IMG/VR virus record: IMGVR_UViG_2529292832_000008
From: a virus
Lineage: Duplodnaviria; Heunggongvirae; Uroviricota; Caudoviricetes
Direction: 5' to 3' (one strand)
DNA: 4,451 bases
Below are positions 1-4,451 of this stretch, one piece after another; the stretch's first letter is position 1; each line of letters starts with the position of its first letter. A program made the position numbers and the translations under genes. The notes below the pieces were generated by a model. It worked only from the letters and a program-made list of their open reading frames with translations. It did no database searches and was not told the DNA's origin.

Positions 1-505
1 GGAGAAATAGGTGTTCTGTTTGCCGTTATCCGTTGTCTGTGTACGGGGAGTTCTGGCTTTCGGTGCCAGCATCTGCGCCACACCACCGAGGATCATACTG
101 GCCCCTGCCGCATACATGCCCGATACAGCCGCGCACCCAGCCAGCCCACAGGGTTCCACCATGCCACCGCAATAACGCCGCCCCCAGCACCACCTGAAAC
201 ACACCGCCACTTTTAGCTCCCGCCAGACGCGGCACGATATGGATCACGGCACCATTTGCCAGCGGCTCATTAAGACGGGCAGATAATTCGGTTTCACCTG
301 CATCACGCCCGGCAATGCGCACCTGATACCAGCCGTCATTCAGTTTCTGACGAAACGCCGGGAGCTGTGTGGCCAGCGCCCGGATGGCTTCGGCCCCCGT
401 TTTCACACGAAGGTCGATGCGGCGGCCAAATCGTTGCAAATCCCCGTAAAGGCAGATGCGTGCCATTCCCGGTGACGCCAGAGGGAGTGTGTGCGTCGCT
501 GCCAT
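1..505 (-). CDS. I: Tail assembly protein (lambda gpI-like), N-terminal ubiquitin-like domain; 3'-partial, with an apparent reading-frame discontinuity around positions 95-185 (possible pseudogene or indel error)
   Basis: Start ATG at 503-505, embedded in the 3' end of K (103-nt overlap), with a weak GAGG at 517-520. The N-terminal ~110 residues (MAATHTLPLASPGMARICLYGDLQRFGRRIDLRVKTGAEAIRAL...AKSGGVFQVVLGAA) look like a real beta-grasp/ubiquitin-like protein. The same frame then gives 49 codons rich in W/R/C/G (LLRWHGGTLWAGWVRGCIGHVCGRGQYDPRWCG...) and stops at 26-28. A different frame, open from 243 down to position 1, encodes ...GASMILGGVAQMLAPKARTPRTQTTDNGKQNTYFS, which looks like genuine conserved protein and continues off the window. 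The gene therefore probably extends past position 1 in that second frame. Confidence 0.7.
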
Positions 506-1146
506 TTGTCGGTATACCTCTCTCGTTTACTCAGTTGTTCAGGAATATGGTGCAGCAGCTCACCGTCGCCGCAGTAAATGGCGGCATGATTCGGCACCGA
601 TGAACCAAAGCAGCACAGCAGCACATCGCCAGGCTGCGCCTCTGTCAGTGGGACACGGTAAAAACCAGTCGCCTCCATATTGTCAAGATAGAGATTCTGA
701 CCGTGACGCCACCAGTCATCCCCGCGATAAAAATCCGGCATCTCAATCCCCGCCAGATGATAAGCATCCCGGAACAGTGTGTAACAGTCCGTCACACCGT
801 GCTCAAAGCGCCGCCCGGTGAGATGCGGCACACAGCGGAACTTATGAATCGTCCCCCGGCAGACCAGCCACCACGGCAAATCACTCTGCACCTGCAGCCG
901 CCGGTCGGCCTCACTCAGCCAGGGCAGACCACCGGGGTGGCTGTGGACCAGCGCCACAATCTCACCCTGCATTTCTGCCTGCAGCCAGTCTTCCGGCGAC
1001 ATACGGAAATACGCCTCCGGCTCACCGGAGATATTCGCGCAGGGGAAATATCTTTCCCCCTCCGGCGTGCTTACCACGAAGCCGCACGACTCCGCTGGCG
1101 CACATCGCCGGGCGTGCGCCAGAATCGCTGATTCTGTCTGTGTCAT
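403..1146 (-). CDS. K: Tail tip assembly protein (lambda gpK-like), two-domain JAMM/MPN metalloprotease + NlpC/P60 peptidase, 247 aa from the first ATG
   Basis: Minus-strand ORF beginning 5 nt after the L stop. Read from the translation: JAMM motif H-S-H-P-G-G-L-P-W-L-S-E-A-D (HxHx7Sx2D, residues 68-81) with an upstream glutamate in A-E-S-C-G (E20); NlpC/P60-like Cys in GVTDCYTLF (C121), His in PNHAAIY (H187), and a third polar residue in LLHHIP (H199/H200). An alternative internal start at Met49 (ATG at 1000-1002) would give a 199-aa product lacking E20. The last 103 nt overlap the start of gene I in another frame. Confidence 0.85.
   Translation of the reverse strand: MTQTESAILAHARRCAPAESCGFVVSTPEGERYFPCANISGEPEAYFRMSPEDWLQAEMQGEIVALVHSHPGGLPWLSEADRRLQVQSDLPWWLVCRGTIHKFRCVPHLTGRRFEHGVTDCYTLFRDAYHLAGIEMPDFYRGDDWWRHGQNLYLDNMEATGFYRVPLTEAQPGDVLLCCFGSSVPNHAAIYCGDGELLHHIPEQLSKRERYTDKWQRRTHSLWRHREWHASAFTGICNDLAAASTFV
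517..520 (-). promoter_or_regulatory. Weak candidate Shine-Dalgarno (GAGG) for gene I, within the K coding region
   Basis: Minus-strand sequence reads GAGGTATACCGACAAATG: GAGG is 11 nt upstream of the I ATG, which is longer than optimal spacing, so this is only a weak call. Confidence 0.3.
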
Positions 1147-1151
1147 GGGAT

Positions 1152-1850
1152 TTACTGCGAAAGTTTGTTAATGGAAAGGAAGCCGCCAAAGTTGCCGACG
1201 TTATTGCGGAACTTACAACCGCTCAGGCATTTGCTGCATTTATCCTTCGTGATATCGGACGTTGGCTGGTCATATTCATCCGCGACAGCCGGACCGCTAT
1301 AACCGCACTCGTCACCGCGATAGGTCCAGGTGCAGGTGTTGGCCAGCATGATACGTCCCGGAAAAACAGCGCCATCCGTTTCCGTCGGCGTGGACAGTAC
1401 AAAGGAGGCACTCACCGCGCTCAGTTCGCTGCACTGCTCAATGCGCCAGCGGCTGATCACCTCCTGCTCCGGATCGGCATAACTGTTTCCGTTGACGAAG
1501 TTCACCGCATCCAGAAAACGGGCGTAAACCTTACGCCGGACCACCGTTCCGCCGACCAGACTCTGCATATCTTCCGCCATCCCGGTGACCATACCGTACA
1601 GGTTAGAAACCGTCAGCGTGGGGCGCGTACTGGTGCCTTTGCCATTCAGTTCAAAACCGCTCCCCTGAATGGGATACGGCTGATACTGTCGCCCCTGCCA
1701 GGTGACCGGCTCACCTTTTTCGTTCTGCTCATTACAGAAAAAATAACGTTCTCCACCGACCTCTGTCAGGTCGATTTCCCAGAGCACCACGCTGGCCGAC
1801 TGCTCCGCACGGGTGCATTCATTCAGTGTTTCCTGCCGGATATCCTGCAT
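1152..1850 (-). CDS. L: Tail tip protein (lambda gpL-like), 232 aa, with C-terminal cysteine cluster
   Basis: 232-aa minus-strand ORF, the same length as lambda gpL. Start ATG at 1848-1850 is preceded by AGGTGGTGA (1855-1863). The C-terminal region carries clustered cysteines (C173, C182, and C-S-K-C-L-S-G-C at residues 205-212), consistent with the Fe-S-binding C-terminal domain reported for gpL-family proteins. Stop TAA at 1152-1154, 5 nt before the K start. Confidence 0.9.
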   Translation of the reverse strand: MQDIRQETLNECTRAEQSASVVLWEIDLTEVGGERYFFCNEQNEKGEPVTWQGRQYQPYPIQGSGFELNGKGTSTRPTLTVSNLYGMVTGMAEDMQSLVGGTVVRRKVYARFLDAVNFVNGNSYADPEQEVISRWRIEQCSELSAVSASFVLSTPTETDGAVFPGRIMLANTCTWTYRGDECGYSGPAVADEYDQPTSDITKDKCSKCLSGCKFRNNVGNFGGFLSINKLSQ

Positions 1851-2179
1851 CAGTTCACCACCTGTTCAAACTCTGCGCTGAACTCAACACGCAGCATACT
1901 GACCCGCGACGACCATTTTGCGCAGGTCACCTTTATCTGCCGCCACTCATAAGGCGGCGTCCACAGAAAGGATTTCCAGCCCCCGTGCTCTTCCAGAAAC
2001 GACTCCAGTACCGTGGCCTCCTCACGGGGGACAGAAAGCGTCACGCTGTACGTTTTCAGGTTGGCATTCAGCCCGGCAGGCGCTCGCTGGGAATAGCCAT
2101 CACCAAAGCGCACCTTTCTTACAGAAGGGACCGAAGCCACATCCATACCGGGTTTCACTTTCCAGCGGAAGGTCTTCAT
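1850..2179 (-). CDS. M: Minor tail / tail tip assembly protein (lambda gpM-like), 109 aa
   Basis: 109-aa minus-strand ORF (MKTFRWKVKPGMDVASVPSVRKVRFGDGYSQRAP...), the same length as lambda gpM. Start ATG at 2177-2179 overlaps the H stop (ATGA) and is preceded by a strong Shine-Dalgarno GGAGGTG at 2184-2190. Stop TGA at 1850-1852 overlaps the L start by 1 nt. Gene order matches lambda. Confidence 0.9.
   Translation of the reverse strand: MKTFRWKVKPGMDVASVPSVRKVRFGDGYSQRAPAGLNANLKTYSVTLSVPREEATVLESFLEEHGGWKSFLWTPPYEWRQIKVTCAKWSSRVSMLRVEFSAEFEQVVN
1855..1863 (-). promoter_or_regulatory. Shine-Dalgarno sequence for L (AGGTGGTGA), inside the 3' end of M
   Basis: Minus-strand sequence reads AACAGGTGGTGAACTGATG: a purine-rich SD-like element 4-8 nt upstream of the L ATG, with the M stop TGA overlapping the L ATG (TGATG). 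Confidence 0.6.
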
Positions 2180-4451
2180 CGTCCACCTCCGGAGAACAGG
2201 CCACCATCACGCATCTGTGTCTGAATTTCATCACGGGCACCCTTGCGGGCCATGTCATACACCGCCTTCAGAGCAGCCGGACCTATCTGCCCGTTCGTGC
2301 CGTCGTTGTTAATCACCACATGGTTATTCTGCTCAAACGTCCCGGACGCCTGCGACCGGCTGTCTGCCATGCCGCCCGGTGTACCGACATAACCGCCGGT
2401 GGCATAGCCGCGCATCAGCCGGTAAAGATTCCCCACGCCAATCCGGCTGGTTGCCTCCTTCGTGAAGACAAACTCACCACGGTGAACAATCCCCGCTGGC
2501 TCATATTTGCCGCCGGTTCCCGTAAATCCTCCGGTCGCAAAATGGAATTTCGCCGCAGCGGCCTGAATGGCTGTACCGCCTGACGCGGATGCTCCACCAC
2601 TGGCAGCACCGCCAATGGCGCTGCCGATACTCCCGACAATCCCCACCATTGCCTGCTTAAGCAGAATTTCTGTCATCATGGACAGCACGGAACGGGTGAA
2701 GCTGCGCCAGTTCTGCTCACTGCCGGTCAGCATCGCCGCCATATTCTGTGCAATACCATCAAAGGTCTGCGTGGCTGCACTTTTTACCTGCGACATACTG
2801 TCCGTGGCGCTCTCTTCCCACTCACTCCAGCCGGACTTCAGGCCTGCCATCCAGTTCCCGCGAAGCTGGTCTTCAGCCGCCCAGGTCTTTTTCTGCTCTG
2901 ACATGACGTTATTCAGCGCCAGCGGATTATCGCCATACTGTTCCTTCAGGCGCTGTTCCGTGGCTTCCCGTTCTGCCTGCCGGTCAGTCAGCCCCCGGCT
3001 TTTCGCATCAATGGCGGCCCGTTTTGCCCGTTGCTGCTGTGCGAATTTATCCGCCTGCTGCGCCAGCGCGTTCAGGCGCTCCTGATACGTAACCTTGTCG
3101 CCAAGTGCAGCCAGCTGGCGTTTGTACTCCAGCGTCTCATCTTTATGCGCCAGCAGGGATTTCTCCTGTGCAGACAGCTGGCGACGTTGTGCCGCCTCCT
3201 CCAGTACCGCGAACTGATTTTCAGCCTTCCACAAATCCCGGCGCTGCTGGCTGATTTTCTCATTTGCTCCGGCATGCTTCTCCAGCGTCCGGAGTTCTGC
3301 CTGAAGCGTCAGCAGGGCAGCATGAGCACTGTCTTCCTGACGATCGCCCGCAGACACCTTCACGCCGGACTGTTTCGGCTTTTTCAGCGTCGCTTCATAA
3401 TCCTTTTTCGCCGCCGCCATCAGCGTGTTGTAATCTGCCTGCAGGATTCTCCCGTCTTTCAGTGCCTTGTTCAGTTCTTCCTGACGGGCGGTATATTTCT
3501 CCAGCGGCGTCTGCAGCCGTTCGTAAGCCTTCTGCGCCTCTTCGGTATATTTCAGCCGTGATGCCTCAGACTCGGCCCAGTCCTTTGCTGCCATCTCTCT
3601 GGCCTTTTCAAGATCGGCCTGCAACGTGGCGGCTGAAAGCCCAAGTTGCGCATTCGCTCTGTCCTCCCATGCTCCCCGGAGATTGGCAAGAAATGCTGAG
3701 GTTTTACCGCGCCGGTGGCTCCGGCTCTGATACCACTGCCATTTTTTGTCCGCCTCATCAAAAGCCTTTTCTGCTTTCTCCAGCATTCCCTGGGCAGTGT
3801 CCGGGCGACCAATATCCAGCACCGAATCCCACATGGATTTGAATGCCCGTGCTGTCCTGTCTGCCCAGGTCTCCAGCGTGCCCATGTTCTCTTTCAGGCG
3901 GCGGGTCTGGTCATCAAACCCTTTCGTTGCGGCCTCGTTCGCCGCCTGCAATGCCCCGGCTTCATCTCCGGAACGCTGCAACTGAGCAACATACGCAATC
4001 TGCTCCGCCGTCACGTTATGGAACTGACGTGCCATCGCTGTCAGTCCCGACGTCGGGTCTGTGGTCAGCTTCCCGAAGGCTTCAGCGACCTTGTCCACCT
4101 CCACGCCGGATGCAGAGGAGAAACGCGCCACACTCTGGCTGATCGCCTCAAACTGCTCACCACCACGCACACCGGCATTCACCAGCGCCGTCAGTGACTC
4201 GCTGGTCTGGTTAAACGTCAGCCCTGCCGCCTGCCCGGCTCTGGACAGGACCAGCATACGATCTGCCGTCAGTCCCGCCTGATTGCCGGAAAGGACCAGC
4301 GTTTTGTTGAAATCGGACAGGGTTGAGTTGCCCTGATACCAGGCATACGCCAGCGCCCCGGTCGCCACCGCCAGCGAGGTGGCCCCCACCATCGGCAGGG
4401 TGATCGCACCGGCAAGCCCCCGGAACATGGGGATCATCCCGCCGAAGGAGT
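2176..4451 (-). CDS. H: Tail tape measure protein (lambda gpH-like), 5'-partial; N-terminus lies beyond the window end
   Basis: Single long minus-strand ORF. The track starts it at Met 4437, but the frame is open to position 4451 (codons upstream read ...S-F-G-G before MIPMFRG), so the real start is outside the window. The translation has a charged, coiled-coil-like central region (e.g. RLKYTEEAQKAYERLQTPLEKYTARQEELNKALKDG, QQRRDLWKAENQFAVLEEAAQRRQL) and a Gly-rich hydrophobic segment near the C-terminus (AMVGIVGSIGSAIGGAASGGASASGG, about 2560-2652), as expected for a lambda-type tape measure. Its TGA stop (2176-2178) overlaps the ATG of the next gene (ATGA). Position directly upstream of M-L-K-I matches lambda gene order. 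Confidence 0.9.
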   Translation of the reverse strand, partial: SFGGMIPMFRGLAGAITLPMVGATSLAVATGALAYAWYQGNSTLSDFNKTLVLSGNQAGLTADRMLVLSRAGQAAGLTFNQTSESLTALVNAGVRGGEQFEAISQSVARFSSASGVEVDKVAEAFGKLTTDPTSGLTAMARQFHNVTAEQIAYVAQLQRSGDEAGALQAANEAATKGFDDQTRRLKENMGTLETWADRTARAFKSMWDSVLDIGRPDTAQGMLEKAEKAFDEADKKWQWYQSRSHRRGKTSAFLANLRGAWEDRANAQLGLSAATLQADLEKAREMAAKDWAESEASRLKYTEEAQKAYERLQTPLEKYTARQEELNKALKDGRILQADYNTLMAAAKKDYEATLKKPKQSGVKVSAGDRQEDSAHAALLTLQAELRTLEKHAGANEKISQQRRDLWKAENQFAVLEEAAQRRQLSAQEKSLLAHKDETLEYKRQLAALGDKVTYQERLNALAQQADKFAQQQRAKRAAIDAKSRGLTDRQAEREATEQRLKEQYGDNPLALNNVMSEQKKTWAAEDQLRGNWMAGLKSGWSEWEESATDSMSQVKSAATQTFDGIAQNMAAMLTGSEQNWRSFTRSVLSMMTEILLKQAMVGIVGSIGSAIGGAASGGASASGGTAIQAAAAKFHFATGGFTGTGGKYEPAGIVHRGEFVFTKEATSRIGVGNLYRLMRGYATGGYVGTPGGMADSRSQASGTFEQNNHVVINNDGTNGQIGPAALKAVYDMARKGARDEIQTQMRDGGLFSGGGR
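2184..2190 (-). promoter_or_regulatory. Shine-Dalgarno sequence for M (GGAGGTG), inside the 3' end of H
   Basis: Minus-strand sequence reads TCTCCGGAGGTGGACGATGA: GGAGGTG sits 4 nt upstream of the M ATG, which overlaps the H TGA stop. Classic translational coupling. Confidence 0.7.

What the first reader, a model, noticed from the sequence alone, without database searches (positions are those of the whole stretch)
203..1146. K-I pair as a ubiquitin-like + JAMM + NlpC/P60 module in tail tip assembly, with a di-glycine after the Ubl domain of I
Seen in sequence: I begins with a ~100-residue domain ending in A-K-S-G-G (residues 97-101, codons about 203-217), followed by a Gly/Ala-rich hydrophobic segment. 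K carries a complete JAMM motif plus an NlpC/P60-type Cys/His/His arrangement. Established knowledge: JAMM/MPN enzymes are the deubiquitinase/processing class that cleaves after Gly-Gly, and comparative genomics has proposed lambda I/K as a prokaryotic Ubl/JAB pair. Inference: K may process I at the GG, or act on host peptidoglycan via the NlpC/P60 domain, during tail tip assembly or infection. As far as I know this has not been demonstrated biochemically, so it is a testable, under-characterised system rather than a new one.
Basis: partly seen in the sequence, partly recalled or inferred. Interest (0 to 1): 0.5.

Follow-up and report, generated by a model that had tools for sequence, protein, structure and literature searches.

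The report
Lambda tail-tip K protease and I substrate
This is the well-known phage lambda-type tail-tip gene pair in which protein K (a deubiquitinase-like protease) trims a ubiquitin-like cap off protein I during tail assembly; the idea dates from 2006 and has since been reported as shown, so it is ordinary, and this copy of gene I is also broken by two one-base deletions.

Summary
The window is a whole 4,451-bp draft contig of E. coli 2749250 (AQDZ01000136.1). It carries lambda-like tail genes H-M-L-K-I on the minus strand.

**What checks out**
- K (403-1146, 247 aa) is Prok-JAB plus NlpC/P60. It has a full JAMM motif (E19, H68, H70, S78, D81) and C121/H187/H199.
- I starts at 505. Its N-terminus models as a MoaD/SAMP-type beta-grasp, and AKSGG sits at 203-217 as stated.

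**What needs correcting**
- The catalytic Glu is E19, not E20.
- Two 1-nt deletions (at 173/174 and about 133-135) break I's frame after residue 111. The hydrophobic segment and plug domain are therefore out of frame here.
- G100-G101 is not the conserved feature. The near-invariant motif is P92-x3-G96-[A/S/G]97, which aligns with ubiquitin G75-G76. The likely cut is A97|K98.
- A peptidoglycan role during infection is unsupported, because gpK is absent from virions.

**Novelty**
- Iyer, Burroughs and Aravind predicted this mechanism in 2006.
- A 2025 talk from the Davidson lab reports that gpK cleaves gpI's ubiquitin-like domain.
- F-pyocin data agree.

Verdict: already known, low interest. 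The open points are the exact cleavage site and the role of the conserved NlpC/P60 triad.

The parts
403..1146 (-). Gene K, 247 aa plus stop: tail tip assembly protease (JAB/MPN+ domain followed by NlpC/P60 domain). ATG at 1144-1146, 5 nt after the stop of L.
   Evidence: ORF list; Pfam PF14464 and PF00877; 92-96% identical 247-aa 'C40 family peptidase' clusters; AF2 model pLDDT 79.
835..1140 (-). JAB/MPN+ (JAMM) metalloprotease domain of K, residues 3-104. Catalytic residues: E19 (1090-1092), H68 (943-945), H70 (937-939), S78 (913-915), D81 (904-906).
   Evidence: Pfam Prok-JAB E 3.7e-14; motif positions; PDB sequence hit 2KKS; best structural matches are P. furiosus JAMM1 5LD9/5LDA, Rpn11, CSN5 and AMSH; E/H/H/S/D invariant in 11/11 divergent K proteins.
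475..816 (-). NlpC/P60 (C40) papain-like domain of K, residues 111-224. Putative triad: C121 (784-786), H187 (586-588), H199 (550-552).
   Evidence: Pfam NLPC_P60 E 1.3e-12; structural matches to MepS 8XUP and bacterial peptidase 7V6S; D-C-[YW], [ND]-H and L-H-H invariant in 11/11 divergent K proteins.
403..505 (-). K/I overlap: the first 34 codons of the long I reading frame lie inside the 3' end of K in another frame. The conserved I N-terminus corresponds to M14 (464-466). The GTG at 404-406 (V34), used by PGAP and by the deposit, would delete strands beta1-beta2 of the Ubl fold.
   Evidence: ORF coordinates; distant homologues start at query residue 14-16; Pfam domain spans residues 14-97; model residues 1-12 disordered and beta1 at 13-19; P0076 starts at V34.
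227..469 (-). Ubiquitin-like beta-grasp domain of I (residues 13-93), MoaD/ThiS/SAMP type.
   Evidence: AF2 model, pLDDT about 80-92 over residues 11-90; Foldseek PDB top hits SAMP1 2L52/3PO0, MoaD, CysO and Urm1, then ubiquitin/SUMO, TMt about 0.7; Pfam PF06805.
215..220 (-). G96-A97: near-invariant Gly-[Ala/Ser/Gly] at a fixed distance (P92-x3-G-A) after the last beta strand. It is the positional equivalent of ubiquitin G75-G76 and the MoaD C-terminal GG. Predicted JAMM scissile bond A97|K98.
203..208 (-). It is part of a variable Lys/Arg/Gly spacer between the Ubl tail and the first hydrophobic helix. It is common but not conserved.
   Evidence: Position confirmed; G100 56%, G101 80%, 'GG' in 65% of 225 junctions; absent in the Halomonas, Pride, mEp234 and Sphaerotilus homologues.
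173..174 (-). First frameshift in I: one base (G on the coding strand, GCGTT[G]ATTGCG) is missing relative to intact relatives. The reading frame is correct only up to L111.
   Evidence: Alignment with E. coli MS20654 prophage and phage PhiR47_1; three-frame translation; repaired translation matches the intact protein.
133..135 (-). Second frameshift in I: one C of GGGTG[C]CGCGG is missing, 41 nt downstream of the first. After it the conserved sequence continues in the third frame.
   Evidence: The double-deletion allele was not found in genome, viral or metagenome collections.
1..172 (-). Remainder of I held in the window: hydrophobic helices H1/H2 and the start of the C-terminal plug domain. 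It is out of frame with the start codon and cut by the contig end at about codon 168 of 215.
   Evidence: 8IYK/9E7M sequence matches for the intact relative.
1152..1850 (-). Context: gene L (minor tail protein L, 232 aa).
   Evidence: Pfam Phage_tail_L E 1.6e-101.
1850..2179 (-). Context: gene M (distal tail protein, 109 aa).
   Evidence: Pfam Phage_min_tail E 1.2e-39.
2176..4451 (-). Context: gene H (tape measure protein), with its 5' end cut by the contig end.
   Evidence: ORF list; Pfam TMP_2 and Tape_meas_lam_C on the deposited gene.

Best explanation
Window 203-1146 holds the lambda-type tail-tip maturation pair.

Protein I is made as a precursor with four parts: an N-terminal MoaD/SAMP-like ubiquitin fold (residues about 14-93); a short tail ending in the conserved G96-A97; a Lys/Gly spacer followed by two hydrophobic helices; and a C-terminal domain that becomes the trimeric plug inside the tail-tip cone, holding the C-terminus of the tape measure protein.

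Protein K is a cytoplasmic, non-structural enzyme with a JAMM zinc-protease domain and an NlpC/P60 cysteine-peptidase domain. Its JAMM domain recognises the ubiquitin fold of I and cuts it off once I has been built into the J-I-L tip intermediate. This acts as an assembly checkpoint. The Ubl domain and K then leave, and only the C-terminal part of I stays in the virion.

I place the scissile bond at A97|K98, the equivalent of ubiquitin G76, and not after G101.

Shown here: domains, folds, catalytic residues, their conservation and the synteny. Taken from the literature: the cleavage itself, its timing, the fate of I and the absence of K from virions. Inferred: the exact bond, and that the NlpC/P60 triad is catalytically used.

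In this particular contig, I carries two 1-nt deletions just after the Ubl domain. As written, the substrate's structural half cannot be made. This is either an error in a short collapsed-repeat contig of a draft assembly or a recently inactivated prophage.
For: Domains and motifs:
- Pfam domains for K and I.
- Full JAMM motif and Cys/His/His arrangement.
- These residues are invariant in 26/27 close K proteins and 11/11 distant ones at 36-39% identity or less.

Folds:
- The K model's best PDB match is PfJAMM1, an enzyme solved in complex with the Ubl SAMP2.
- The I N-terminal model matches SAMP1, MoaD, CysO, Urm1 and ubiquitin.

Synteny:
- M-L-K(JAB+NlpC)-I-J is kept in 10/10 diverse loci from Halomonas, Sphaerotilus, Moraxella, Acinetobacter, Dhillonvirus, HK97-like and other phages.

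Cleavage-site motif:
- P-x3-G-[ASG] is near-invariant.
- It is in register with the MoaD and ubiquitin C-termini.

Literature:
- Prediction of exactly this mechanism (PMC1779556).
- gpI is in the virion but only its C-terminal part is seen: from residue 101 (PMC11101478), 135-223 (PMC10721106) or 134-222 (PMC12617516; PDB 9E7M chains of 90 aa).
- gpK is not detected in virions (PMC10721106).
- Meeting report that gpK cleaves the Ubl domain of gpI only after gpI has joined other tip proteins (PMC12908700).
- In F-pyocin, the PA0640 N-terminus is present in stalled precursors and absent from mature particles, and deleting the gpK homologue PA0639 gives tip-less tubes (10.64898/2026.02.24.707460).

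Frameshifts. Provenance.
Against: - The experimental demonstration is available to me only as a conference summary. It gives no cleavage site and no data.
- The F-pyocin preprint reports that PA0640 expressed alone in E. coli loses its N-terminus to unknown host proteases, so K-independent trimming is possible.
- My site assignment rests on conservation and on weak profile alignments (hhalign probabilities 16% and under 1%; hmmsearch E 1.7). G101 is still 80% conserved.
- No role is established for the NlpC/P60 domain.
- No K:I complex model could be inspected, because the tools give no multimer prediction and no coordinates.
Confidence: 0.85

Rival explanations
1. K cuts I after G100-G101, the first reader's site, and G96-A97 is conserved for another reason such as packing of the Ubl tail.
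For: G101 is Gly in 80% and G100 in 56% of 225 junctions. JAMM enzymes classically cut after Gly-Gly (established knowledge). The region 98-102 is the least confident, most flexible part of the model.
Against: Several lineages with intact JAMM K proteins have no GG there at all (PAVEGA-GEVFNV, PVMTGA-KRGLGQ, PVVIGS-KKAGLL). The spacer length varies, whereas a JAMM groove needs a fixed tail length from the Ubl body. G96-A97 is about 99% conserved and in register with Ub G75-G76. Residue 101 is reported as still present in the virion model (PMC11101478).
Confidence: 0.25
2. The NlpC/P60 domain of K is a virion-delivered peptidoglycan hydrolase that opens the cell wall during infection.
For: The domain is a bona fide NlpC/P60 with a conserved Cys/His/His, and its nearest solved folds include the murein endopeptidase MepS. 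The enzyme that breaches peptidoglycan for lambda is unidentified (PMC11101478).
Against: gpK was not detected in virions by mass spectrometry and was not resolved in three cryo-EM studies (PMC10721106, PMC12617516). Lambda virions are stated not to contain a peptidoglycan hydrolase (PMC12617516). The F-pyocin homologue PA0639 is absent from mature particles (10.64898/2026.02.24.707460). K is made in the cytoplasm; I did not run a signal-peptide predictor.
Confidence: 0.06
3. K is mainly a chaperone or scaffold. The Ubl domain of I is removed by host proteases or simply stays attached but disordered, and the catalytic motifs are relics.
For: PA0640 expressed alone loses its N-terminus to host proteases (10.64898/2026.02.24.707460). 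Cryo-EM cannot distinguish cleaved from disordered. [quoted passage not shown]
Against: All five JAMM residues and the NlpC/P60 triad are invariant across 11 lineages down to about 36% identity, which relics would not be. The meeting report states that K does the cleavage (PMC12908700). The N-terminus is missing from mature F-pyocin by MS but present in stalled precursors.
Confidence: 0.05
4. For this window only: the two deletions are real, so this prophage copy has a dead I gene and cannot make infectious tails.
For: The deletions are in the deposited contig and its annotation. Other frameshifted I genes exist in complete E. coli chromosomes, for example P0007 on a 4.7-Mb contig with a shift near the same site, and P0006. 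H, M, L and K remain intact, as expected for recent decay.
Against: The contig is a 4.45-kb fragment that ends inside H and I, typical of collapsed lambdoid repeats in a draft assembly where consensus errors are common. Both deletions lie within 175 nt of the contig end. No other sequence in the genome, viral or metagenome collections shares the double deletion. Downstream codons show no further decay.
Confidence: 0.45

Closest known systems
Bacteriophage lambda gpK / gpI (tail tip assembly proteins K and I; TAPK/TAPI of Iyer, Burroughs and Aravind 2006)
   Same: Same genes. Gene order is H-M-L-K-I, with 94-98% DNA identity to lambda-like phages over most of the window. K is 247 aa with JAB plus NlpC/P60. 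I has the same Ubl domain, AKSGG, hydrophobic helices and plug domain.
   Different: The segment of I from about residue 68 to 140 is a different allele (mEp460/PhiR47_1 type) from lambda's. In this contig I carries two frameshifts. Lambda's classical annotations (K 199 aa, I variants of 190 aa) hide the catalytic Glu of the JAB domain and strands beta1-beta2 of the Ubl (PMC7291167).
F-type pyocin PA0639 (gpK homologue) / PA0640 (tip plug protein, gpI homologue) of Pseudomonas aeruginosa
   Same: Same module in a tailocin. [quoted passage not shown] The K homologue is required for tip formation and is absent from particles (10.64898/2026.02.24.707460). PDB chains 9L9P_A and 25VF_9 ('putative tail assembly protein') match the I profile and carry the same P-x3-G-S-K junction.
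   Different: It is a bacteriocin, not a phage. The sequence is distant, and the protease responsible was left open in that preprint.
Archaeal SAMP / JAMM1 pairs (H. volcanii and P. furiosus JAMM1 with SAMP1/SAMP2) and bacterial MoaD/ThiS/CysO with Mec+/QbsD-type JAB peptidases
   Same: They are the best structural matches of both halves: K's N-domain to PfJAMM1 (5LD9, and 5LDA with SAMP2), and I's N-domain to SAMP1, MoaD and CysO. A JAMM enzyme cuts at the C-terminal small-residue pair of a beta-grasp protein.
   Different: There is no E1/E2 or sulfur-transfer partner in the operon. The Ubl here is a cis-fused, single-use leader on a structural protein, not a recyclable modifier. The tail ends G-A instead of G-G. 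The protease carries an extra NlpC/P60 domain.
Bil (bacterial ISG15-like) and related Ubl-conjugating anti-phage systems
   Same: They also combine a Ubl with a JAB deubiquitinase and also act on the siphophage tail tip, conjugating Ubl to the central tail fibre (10.1101/2023.09.04.556158).
   Different: They are host-encoded defence systems with E1 and E2 that conjugate the Ubl to a target. The K/I pair is phage-encoded, has no conjugation enzymes and only removes a Ubl.

Membership tests
JAB/MPN+ (JAMM) metalloproteases (Pfam PF14464 Prok-JAB) | Profile match above the curated threshold | tested here: met
   53 bits against a cut-off of 25, E 3.7e-14, residues 3-104; PDB sequence hit 2KKS, E 9e-6.
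JAB/MPN+ (JAMM) metalloproteases (Pfam PF14464 Prok-JAB) | Catalytic signature E ... H-x-H-x7-S-x2-D | tested here: met
   E19, H68, H70, S78 and D81; invariant in 11/11 divergent homologues.
JAB/MPN+ (JAMM) metalloproteases (Pfam PF14464 Prok-JAB) | MPN fold | tested here: met
   AF2 model (N-domain pLDDT mostly 90 or more). Foldseek top hits are PfJAMM1, Rpn11, CSN5 and AMSH, with TMt 0.64 to 5LD9.
JAB/MPN+ (JAMM) metalloproteases (Pfam PF14464 Prok-JAB) | Zn-dependent cleavage at the C-terminus of a Ubl | not testable with these tools
   Only a literature report exists (PMC12908700, meeting summary).
NlpC/P60 (MEROPS C40) papain-like peptidases | Profile match above the curated threshold | tested here: met
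   48 bits against a cut-off of 23, E 1.3e-12, residues 111-224.
NlpC/P60 (MEROPS C40) papain-like peptidases | Cys-His-His/polar catalytic triad | tested here: met
   C121, H187 and H199 lie in conserved D-C-[YW], [ND]-H and L-H-H motifs, 11/11. The geometry could not be checked because no coordinates are returned.
NlpC/P60 (MEROPS C40) papain-like peptidases | Activity on peptidoglycan stem peptides | not testable with these tools
   The literature argues against a virion-borne role (PMC10721106, PMC12617516).
Ubiquitin-like beta-grasp proteins (ThiS/MoaD/SAMP/Urm1 branch) | Beta-grasp fold | tested here: met
   Model elements are beta13-19, beta29-34, alpha37-57, beta59-64, alpha71-78 and beta87-93. 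Foldseek hits are SAMP1, MoaD, CysO, Urm1, ubiquitin and SUMO.
Ubiquitin-like beta-grasp proteins (ThiS/MoaD/SAMP/Urm1 branch) | Flexible C-terminal tail ending in Gly-Gly at a fixed distance after the last strand | tested here: inconclusive
The equivalent position holds G96-A97 (G-[A/S/G] in about 99%), so the pair is small-residue but not Gly-Gly.
Ubiquitin-like beta-grasp proteins (ThiS/MoaD/SAMP/Urm1 branch) | Activation or conjugation partner (E1-like adenylase) in the system | tested here: not met
   None is present in the window or in 10 related loci, where the neighbours are always M, L, K and J. It therefore works as a cleavable Ubl leader, not as a modifier or sulfur carrier.
Lambda tail tip assembly protein I (Pfam PF06805 plus C-terminal plug domain) | Lambda_tail_I profile match | tested here: met
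   87 bits against a cut-off of 23.8, residues 14-97.
Lambda tail tip assembly protein I (Pfam PF06805 plus C-terminal plug domain) | One continuous ORF: Ubl, two hydrophobic helices, plug domain | tested here: not met
   Two 1-nt deletions break the frame after residue 111. The sequence of the later parts is present but out of frame, and it is truncated by the contig end.
Lambda tail tip assembly protein I (Pfam PF06805 plus C-terminal plug domain) | Position between K and J in the tail-tip operon | tested here: met
   K lies immediately upstream and overlapping. J follows in all intact relatives but lies beyond this contig.

The most novel reading that the evidence does not exclude
K may be a two-headed maturation protease. 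The JAMM head removes I's ubiquitin-like cap at G96-A97. The equally conserved NlpC/P60 head would make a second, still unassigned cut in a tail-tip protein. The obvious candidate is the gpH to gpH* cleavage in the Gly-rich C-terminal region of the tape measure protein, whose protease and exact site are stated to be unknown (PMC12617516).

My evidence does not exclude this. The Cys/His/His triad is invariant in 11 divergent lineages. K is not a virion component, which argues against a cell-wall role. No substrate has been assigned to this domain.
Probability: 0.08. Interest if true: 0.6.

Novelty: already known. Interest (0 to 1): 0.15.

Why it matters
The K/I pair is a clean bacterial-virus example of a ubiquitin fold and a JAMM 'deubiquitinase' working together without any conjugation machinery. 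That bears on the origin of ubiquitin signalling and on how phage tails and tailocins are assembled in the right order. This significance has been in print since 2006, and the mechanism is now reported as demonstrated, so the window adds nothing new in kind.

The practical value of this re-examination is threefold:
- It gives a better-founded cleavage-site prediction (G96-A97|K98 rather than G100-G101) for anyone designing non-cleavable I mutants.
- It is a reminder that common annotations truncate both proteins (K 199 aa; I started at V34) and so hide the JAB catalytic Glu and half of the Ubl fold.
- It flags that I is frameshifted in this deposited contig.

Tried and rejected
1. I looked for the source and for other copies of the double-deletion I allele with exact-pattern scans. 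Nothing turned up in genome contigs, viral contigs or metagenome contigs. A gapped pattern found only one intact copy, in a MAG labelled Bacillota. Provenance came instead from the protein database (P0076, contig length 4451).
2. The search for related loci with the diverse I alignment failed because it found no sufficiently conserved 7-10 column stretch. I replaced it with the look-up of encoding contigs on distant hits and with tblastn of the I C-terminal domain against phages.
3. Two odd hits of the representative search, P0242 (2,783 aa, 24 stretches) and P0300 (1,346 aa, 10 stretches), turned out to be repeat or low-complexity false positives.
4. The mass-spectrometry supplement of PMC10721106 lists only one gpI peptide (9.9% coverage) without its sequence, so it cannot locate the mature N-terminus.
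5. Programmed frameshifting as an explanation of the broken I frame was rejected. Intact relatives encode the protein in one frame, and two separate +1 corrections 41 nt apart would be needed.
6. A sulfur-carrier or conjugation role for the Ubl was rejected, because no E1-like gene is present in any of the loci.
7. Rfam and the promoter/terminator scan found nothing on either strand. The plus-strand ORFs are antisense shadows of the tail genes.
8. A K:I complex prediction was not possible. The tools give no multimer mode and return no coordinates. Natural K-I fusion ORFs (P0134, P0143, P0214) were considered as a workaround but dropped, because contacts could not be read out.
Full report
**What the window is.**
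- All real genes lie on the minus strand: the 3' three-quarters of tape-measure gene H (2176-4451), M (1850-2179), L (1152-1850), K (403-1146) and the first two-thirds of I, from 505 to the window end.
- Megablast finds 122 phage records that cover at least 80% of the window. The closest are lambda-like phages at 94-98% identity. About 3,700 E. coli genome records also carry it, the best at 97.8%.
- The protein P0076 ('bacteriophage lambda tail assembly I family protein [Escherichia coli 2749250]') sits on a contig of exactly 4,451 bp. The look-up returns that contig, AQDZ01000136.1 of GCA_000354875.1, as identical to the window in reverse.
- The window is therefore one complete short contig of a draft assembly. 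It ends inside H and inside I, as expected for a collapsed lambdoid-prophage repeat.

**Checking the observation: K.**
- K is a 247-aa ORF whose ATG (1144-1146) lies 5 nt after the stop of L.
- Pfam gives Prok-JAB over residues 3-104 (E 3.7e-14) and NLPC_P60 over residues 111-224 (E 1.3e-12). Both are well above the curated cut-offs.
- The JAMM signature is complete: E19-S-C-G, then H68-S-H70-P-G-G-L-P-W-L-S78-E-A-D81.
C121 is right, and its partners are H187 and H199/H200.

**Checking the observation: I.**
- Pfam Lambda_tail_I covers residues 14-97.

- The I frame does not continue into a hydrophobic Gly/Ala-rich segment in this sequence.
- I aligned the window with the closest intact alleles, an E. 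coli MS20654 prophage and phage PhiR47_1. One base is missing between 173 and 174 (GCGTT[G]ATT) and another at 133-135 (GGGTG[C]CGCGG).
- The frame from 505 is correct up to L111. It then reads junk to a stop at 26-28 (159 aa), while the conserved sequence continues first in the second frame and then in the third.
- The deposited annotation translates this junk.
- No other sequence in the genome, viral or metagenome collections carries both deletions.
- Other frameshifted I genes exist. One sits in a 4.7-Mb chromosome, with a shift close to the second site (P0007, P0006).
- I cannot decide between an assembly error near a contig end and a recently inactivated prophage. I put it at roughly even odds.

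**Folds.**
- The AlphaFold2 model of K (pLDDT 79, with a disordered linker at 108-119) matches P. furiosus JAMM1 best. This includes the entry where JAMM1 is bound to the ubiquitin-like SAMP2. The next matches are Rpn11, CSN5 and AMSH. The C-terminal half matches the murein endopeptidase MepS and a 'bacterial peptidase'.
- In the model of I residues 1-111 (pLDDT 78), residues 1-12 are disordered, a beta-grasp spans residues 13-93, and a floppy stretch spans 94-106.
- The best PDB matches of the I model are SAMP1, MoaD, CysO and Urm1, followed by ubiquitin and SUMO, with TM about 0.7 on the target.
- Both halves of 'Ubl plus JAMM' are therefore confirmed at the fold level.

**Conservation and synteny.**
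- Among 27 close K homologues, the five JAMM residues and C121/H187/H199 are conserved in all but one evidently frameshifted entry.
- I collected ten distant loci: Halomonas, Sphaerotilus, two metagenome contigs, Dhillonvirus Pride, the HK97-like phage mEp234, the 108-kb phage Cyrano, Moraxella Mcat13 and two Acinetobacter phages.
- In all ten, the gene before I is a JAB-bearing K homologue. Nine give both Pfam domains; L008 gives only Prok-JAB on record but keeps the NlpC/P60 residues. The order M-L-K-I-J is kept.
- E/H/H/S/D, D-C-[YW], [ND]-H and L-H-H are invariant in 11/11. Both catalytic centres are under selection.

**Where the cut is likely to be.**
- In 56 diverse I homologues (30-56% identity), the invariant or near-invariant junction residues are P92, G96 and G108, not G100/G101.
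- Over 225 distinct junctions, P92+4 is Gly in 222 and P92+5 is Ala/Ser/Gly in 223. By contrast, G100 is Gly in 56%, G101 in 80%, and any 'GG' is present in 65%.
- Several lineages with perfect JAMM K proteins have no GG at all after the G-A: PAVEGA-GEVFNV, PVMTGA-KRGLGQ, PVVIGS-KKAGLL and PVVEGA-KRQGLG.
- The last beta strand ends at P92/R93, so L94-A-G-A97 is a four-residue tail like ubiquitin's L73-R-G-G76.
- A profile of the domain weakly hits H. pylori MoaD, with its penultimate residue on G96 (E 1.7).
- hhalign places E. coli MoaD G80 and ubiquitin G75 on G96.
- The three registers agree: A97 corresponds to the C-terminal Gly of ubiquitin and MoaD. I therefore predict A97|K98 as the scissile bond.
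- This fits the statement that gpI is resolved 'from position 101 onward' in the closed tail tip (PMC11101478). That could not hold if cleavage followed G101.
- This step is inference, at about 60% confidence.

**Start codons.**
- Distant homologues begin at the residue equivalent to M14 (MARICLYGDL; ATG 464-466), and the model's first 12 residues are disordered.
- The GTG at 404-406 (V34), used by PGAP and by this deposit, would remove strands beta1 and beta2 of the Ubl fold.
- Lambda's classical 199-aa K starts at M49 and would remove the catalytic E19.
- Papers that used those truncated forms saw only 'a peptidase domain' in K and an 'alpha-beta-alpha-beta motif' in I (PMC7291167).

**What is already known.**
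- Iyer, Burroughs and Aravind (2006; PMC1779556) described TAPI as a ThiS/MoaD-like Ubl with a conserved C-terminal glycine, a Gly-rich linker and a C-terminal domain. They described TAPK as JAB plus NlpC/P60. They wrote that TAPI is probably processed by TAPK, with the JAB releasing the Ubl at its C-terminal-most glycine.
- Cryo-EM and mass spectrometry have since shown that gpI is a virion protein. Its C-terminal part forms the trimeric plug that holds the C-terminus of gpH. The N-terminal domain is never seen, and gpK is not in the virion.
[quoted passage not shown] It adds that this happens only after gpI has bound other tip proteins, which enforces stepwise assembly.
- An F-pyocin preprint shows the N-terminus of the gpI homologue PA0640 present in stalled precursors and gone from mature particles. 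Deleting the gpK homologue PA0639 gives tip-less tubes.
I did not find a full paper with the data.

**Mechanism I commit to.**
- I is synthesised with a Ubl leader. The leader keeps the hydrophobic helices and plug domain in an assembly-competent but docking-incompetent state.
- I joins J and L. K's JAMM domain then binds the Ubl body, threads the L-A-G-A tail into the zinc site and cuts at A97|K98.
- K and the Ubl leave. The tip can now take up the C-terminus of H and the M ring and nucleate the tube.
- Shown here: the parts, their folds, their catalytic residues, conservation and linkage.
- From the literature: the cleavage, its dependence on K, its timing, and the final location of I.
- Inferred: the exact bond and the 'steric shield' role.

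**The NlpC/P60 domain.**
- A role as a virion-borne cell-wall hydrolase is unlikely (about 6%), because K is not in particles.
- Its invariant triad nevertheless argues for a real enzymatic job. The most novel reading I cannot exclude is a second proteolytic step in tail maturation, for example gpH to gpH*, whose protease is unknown (PMC12617516). I give this about 8%.

**Verdict.**
It has one numbering slip and one important omission, the frameshifts.
- Its specific cleavage site and its peptidoglycan alternative are probably wrong.
- Novelty: already known. Interest: low.

Noticed in passing
window 133-135 and 173/174 (minus strand, gene I): Two single-base deletions 41 nt apart break the I reading frame just after the Ubl domain. 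The deposited annotation (126 aa, from GTG V34) translates the resulting junk.
   Followed up: yes
window 1-4451: The window is an entire 4,451-bp contig (AQDZ01000136.1, E. coli 2749250, GCA_000354875.1) that ends inside H and inside I. It is probably a collapsed repeat of several lambdoid prophages, so local consensus errors are plausible.
   Followed up: partly
window about 80-305 (I codons about 68-140): Mosaic joint inside gene I. The flanks are nearly identical to lambda-like phages, but this segment (second half of the Ubl plus the hydrophobic helices) is a different allele, shared with mEp460/PhiR47_1-type phages. It is 24 nt shorter than lambda's once the two deletions are allowed for.
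   Followed up: partly
window 404-406, 464-466, 503-505 (I starts); 1000-1002 (K M49): Public annotations disagree on starts: I at M1, at V34 (PGAP and the deposit) or as a 190-aa form; K as 199 aa from M49 (classical lambda, and PhiR47_1 in L004) or as 247 aa. The short forms delete the JAB catalytic Glu and strands beta1-beta2 of the Ubl. Distant homologues point to M14 for I and to the 247-aa form for K.
   Followed up: yes
P0006, P0007; P0187: Other database copies of I and K from E. coli assemblies are also frameshifted. P0007, on a 4.7-Mb chromosome, shifts within a few bases of the window's second deletion. That GC-rich stretch may be a hot spot for mutation or sequencing error.
   Followed up: no
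P0368 (1,198 aa), P0382 (567 aa); P0134, P0143, P0214: Natural I-J fusion proteins (Ubl, helices, plug, then central fibre) exist in distant lineages. K-I fusion ORFs also occur in E. coli assemblies, and some of those may be frameshift artefacts of the K/I overlap.
   Followed up: partly
L005 (JAEWTL010000010.1, 'MAG: Bacillota bacterium'), positions 1123-1178: A 19.9-kb contig binned as Bacillota carries an exact 56-nt E. coli-type I gene segment. It is probably a mis-binned enterobacterial prophage contig.
   Followed up: no
H91, MW057783.1 'Campylobacter phage CJLB-4': A 48-kb record labelled as a Campylobacter phage encodes an I C-terminal domain 96% identical to this lambda-type one. It looks like a lambda-like genome under an unexpected host label.
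   Followed up: no
window 2560-2640 (gene H, minus strand): The Gly/Ala/Ser-rich stretch of the tape measure protein (GSIGSAIGGAASGGASASGG) lies in the C-terminal part of gpH. The literature reports that gpH is cut to gpH* in a glycine-rich region near its C-terminus, by an unknown protease at an unknown site.
   Followed up: no
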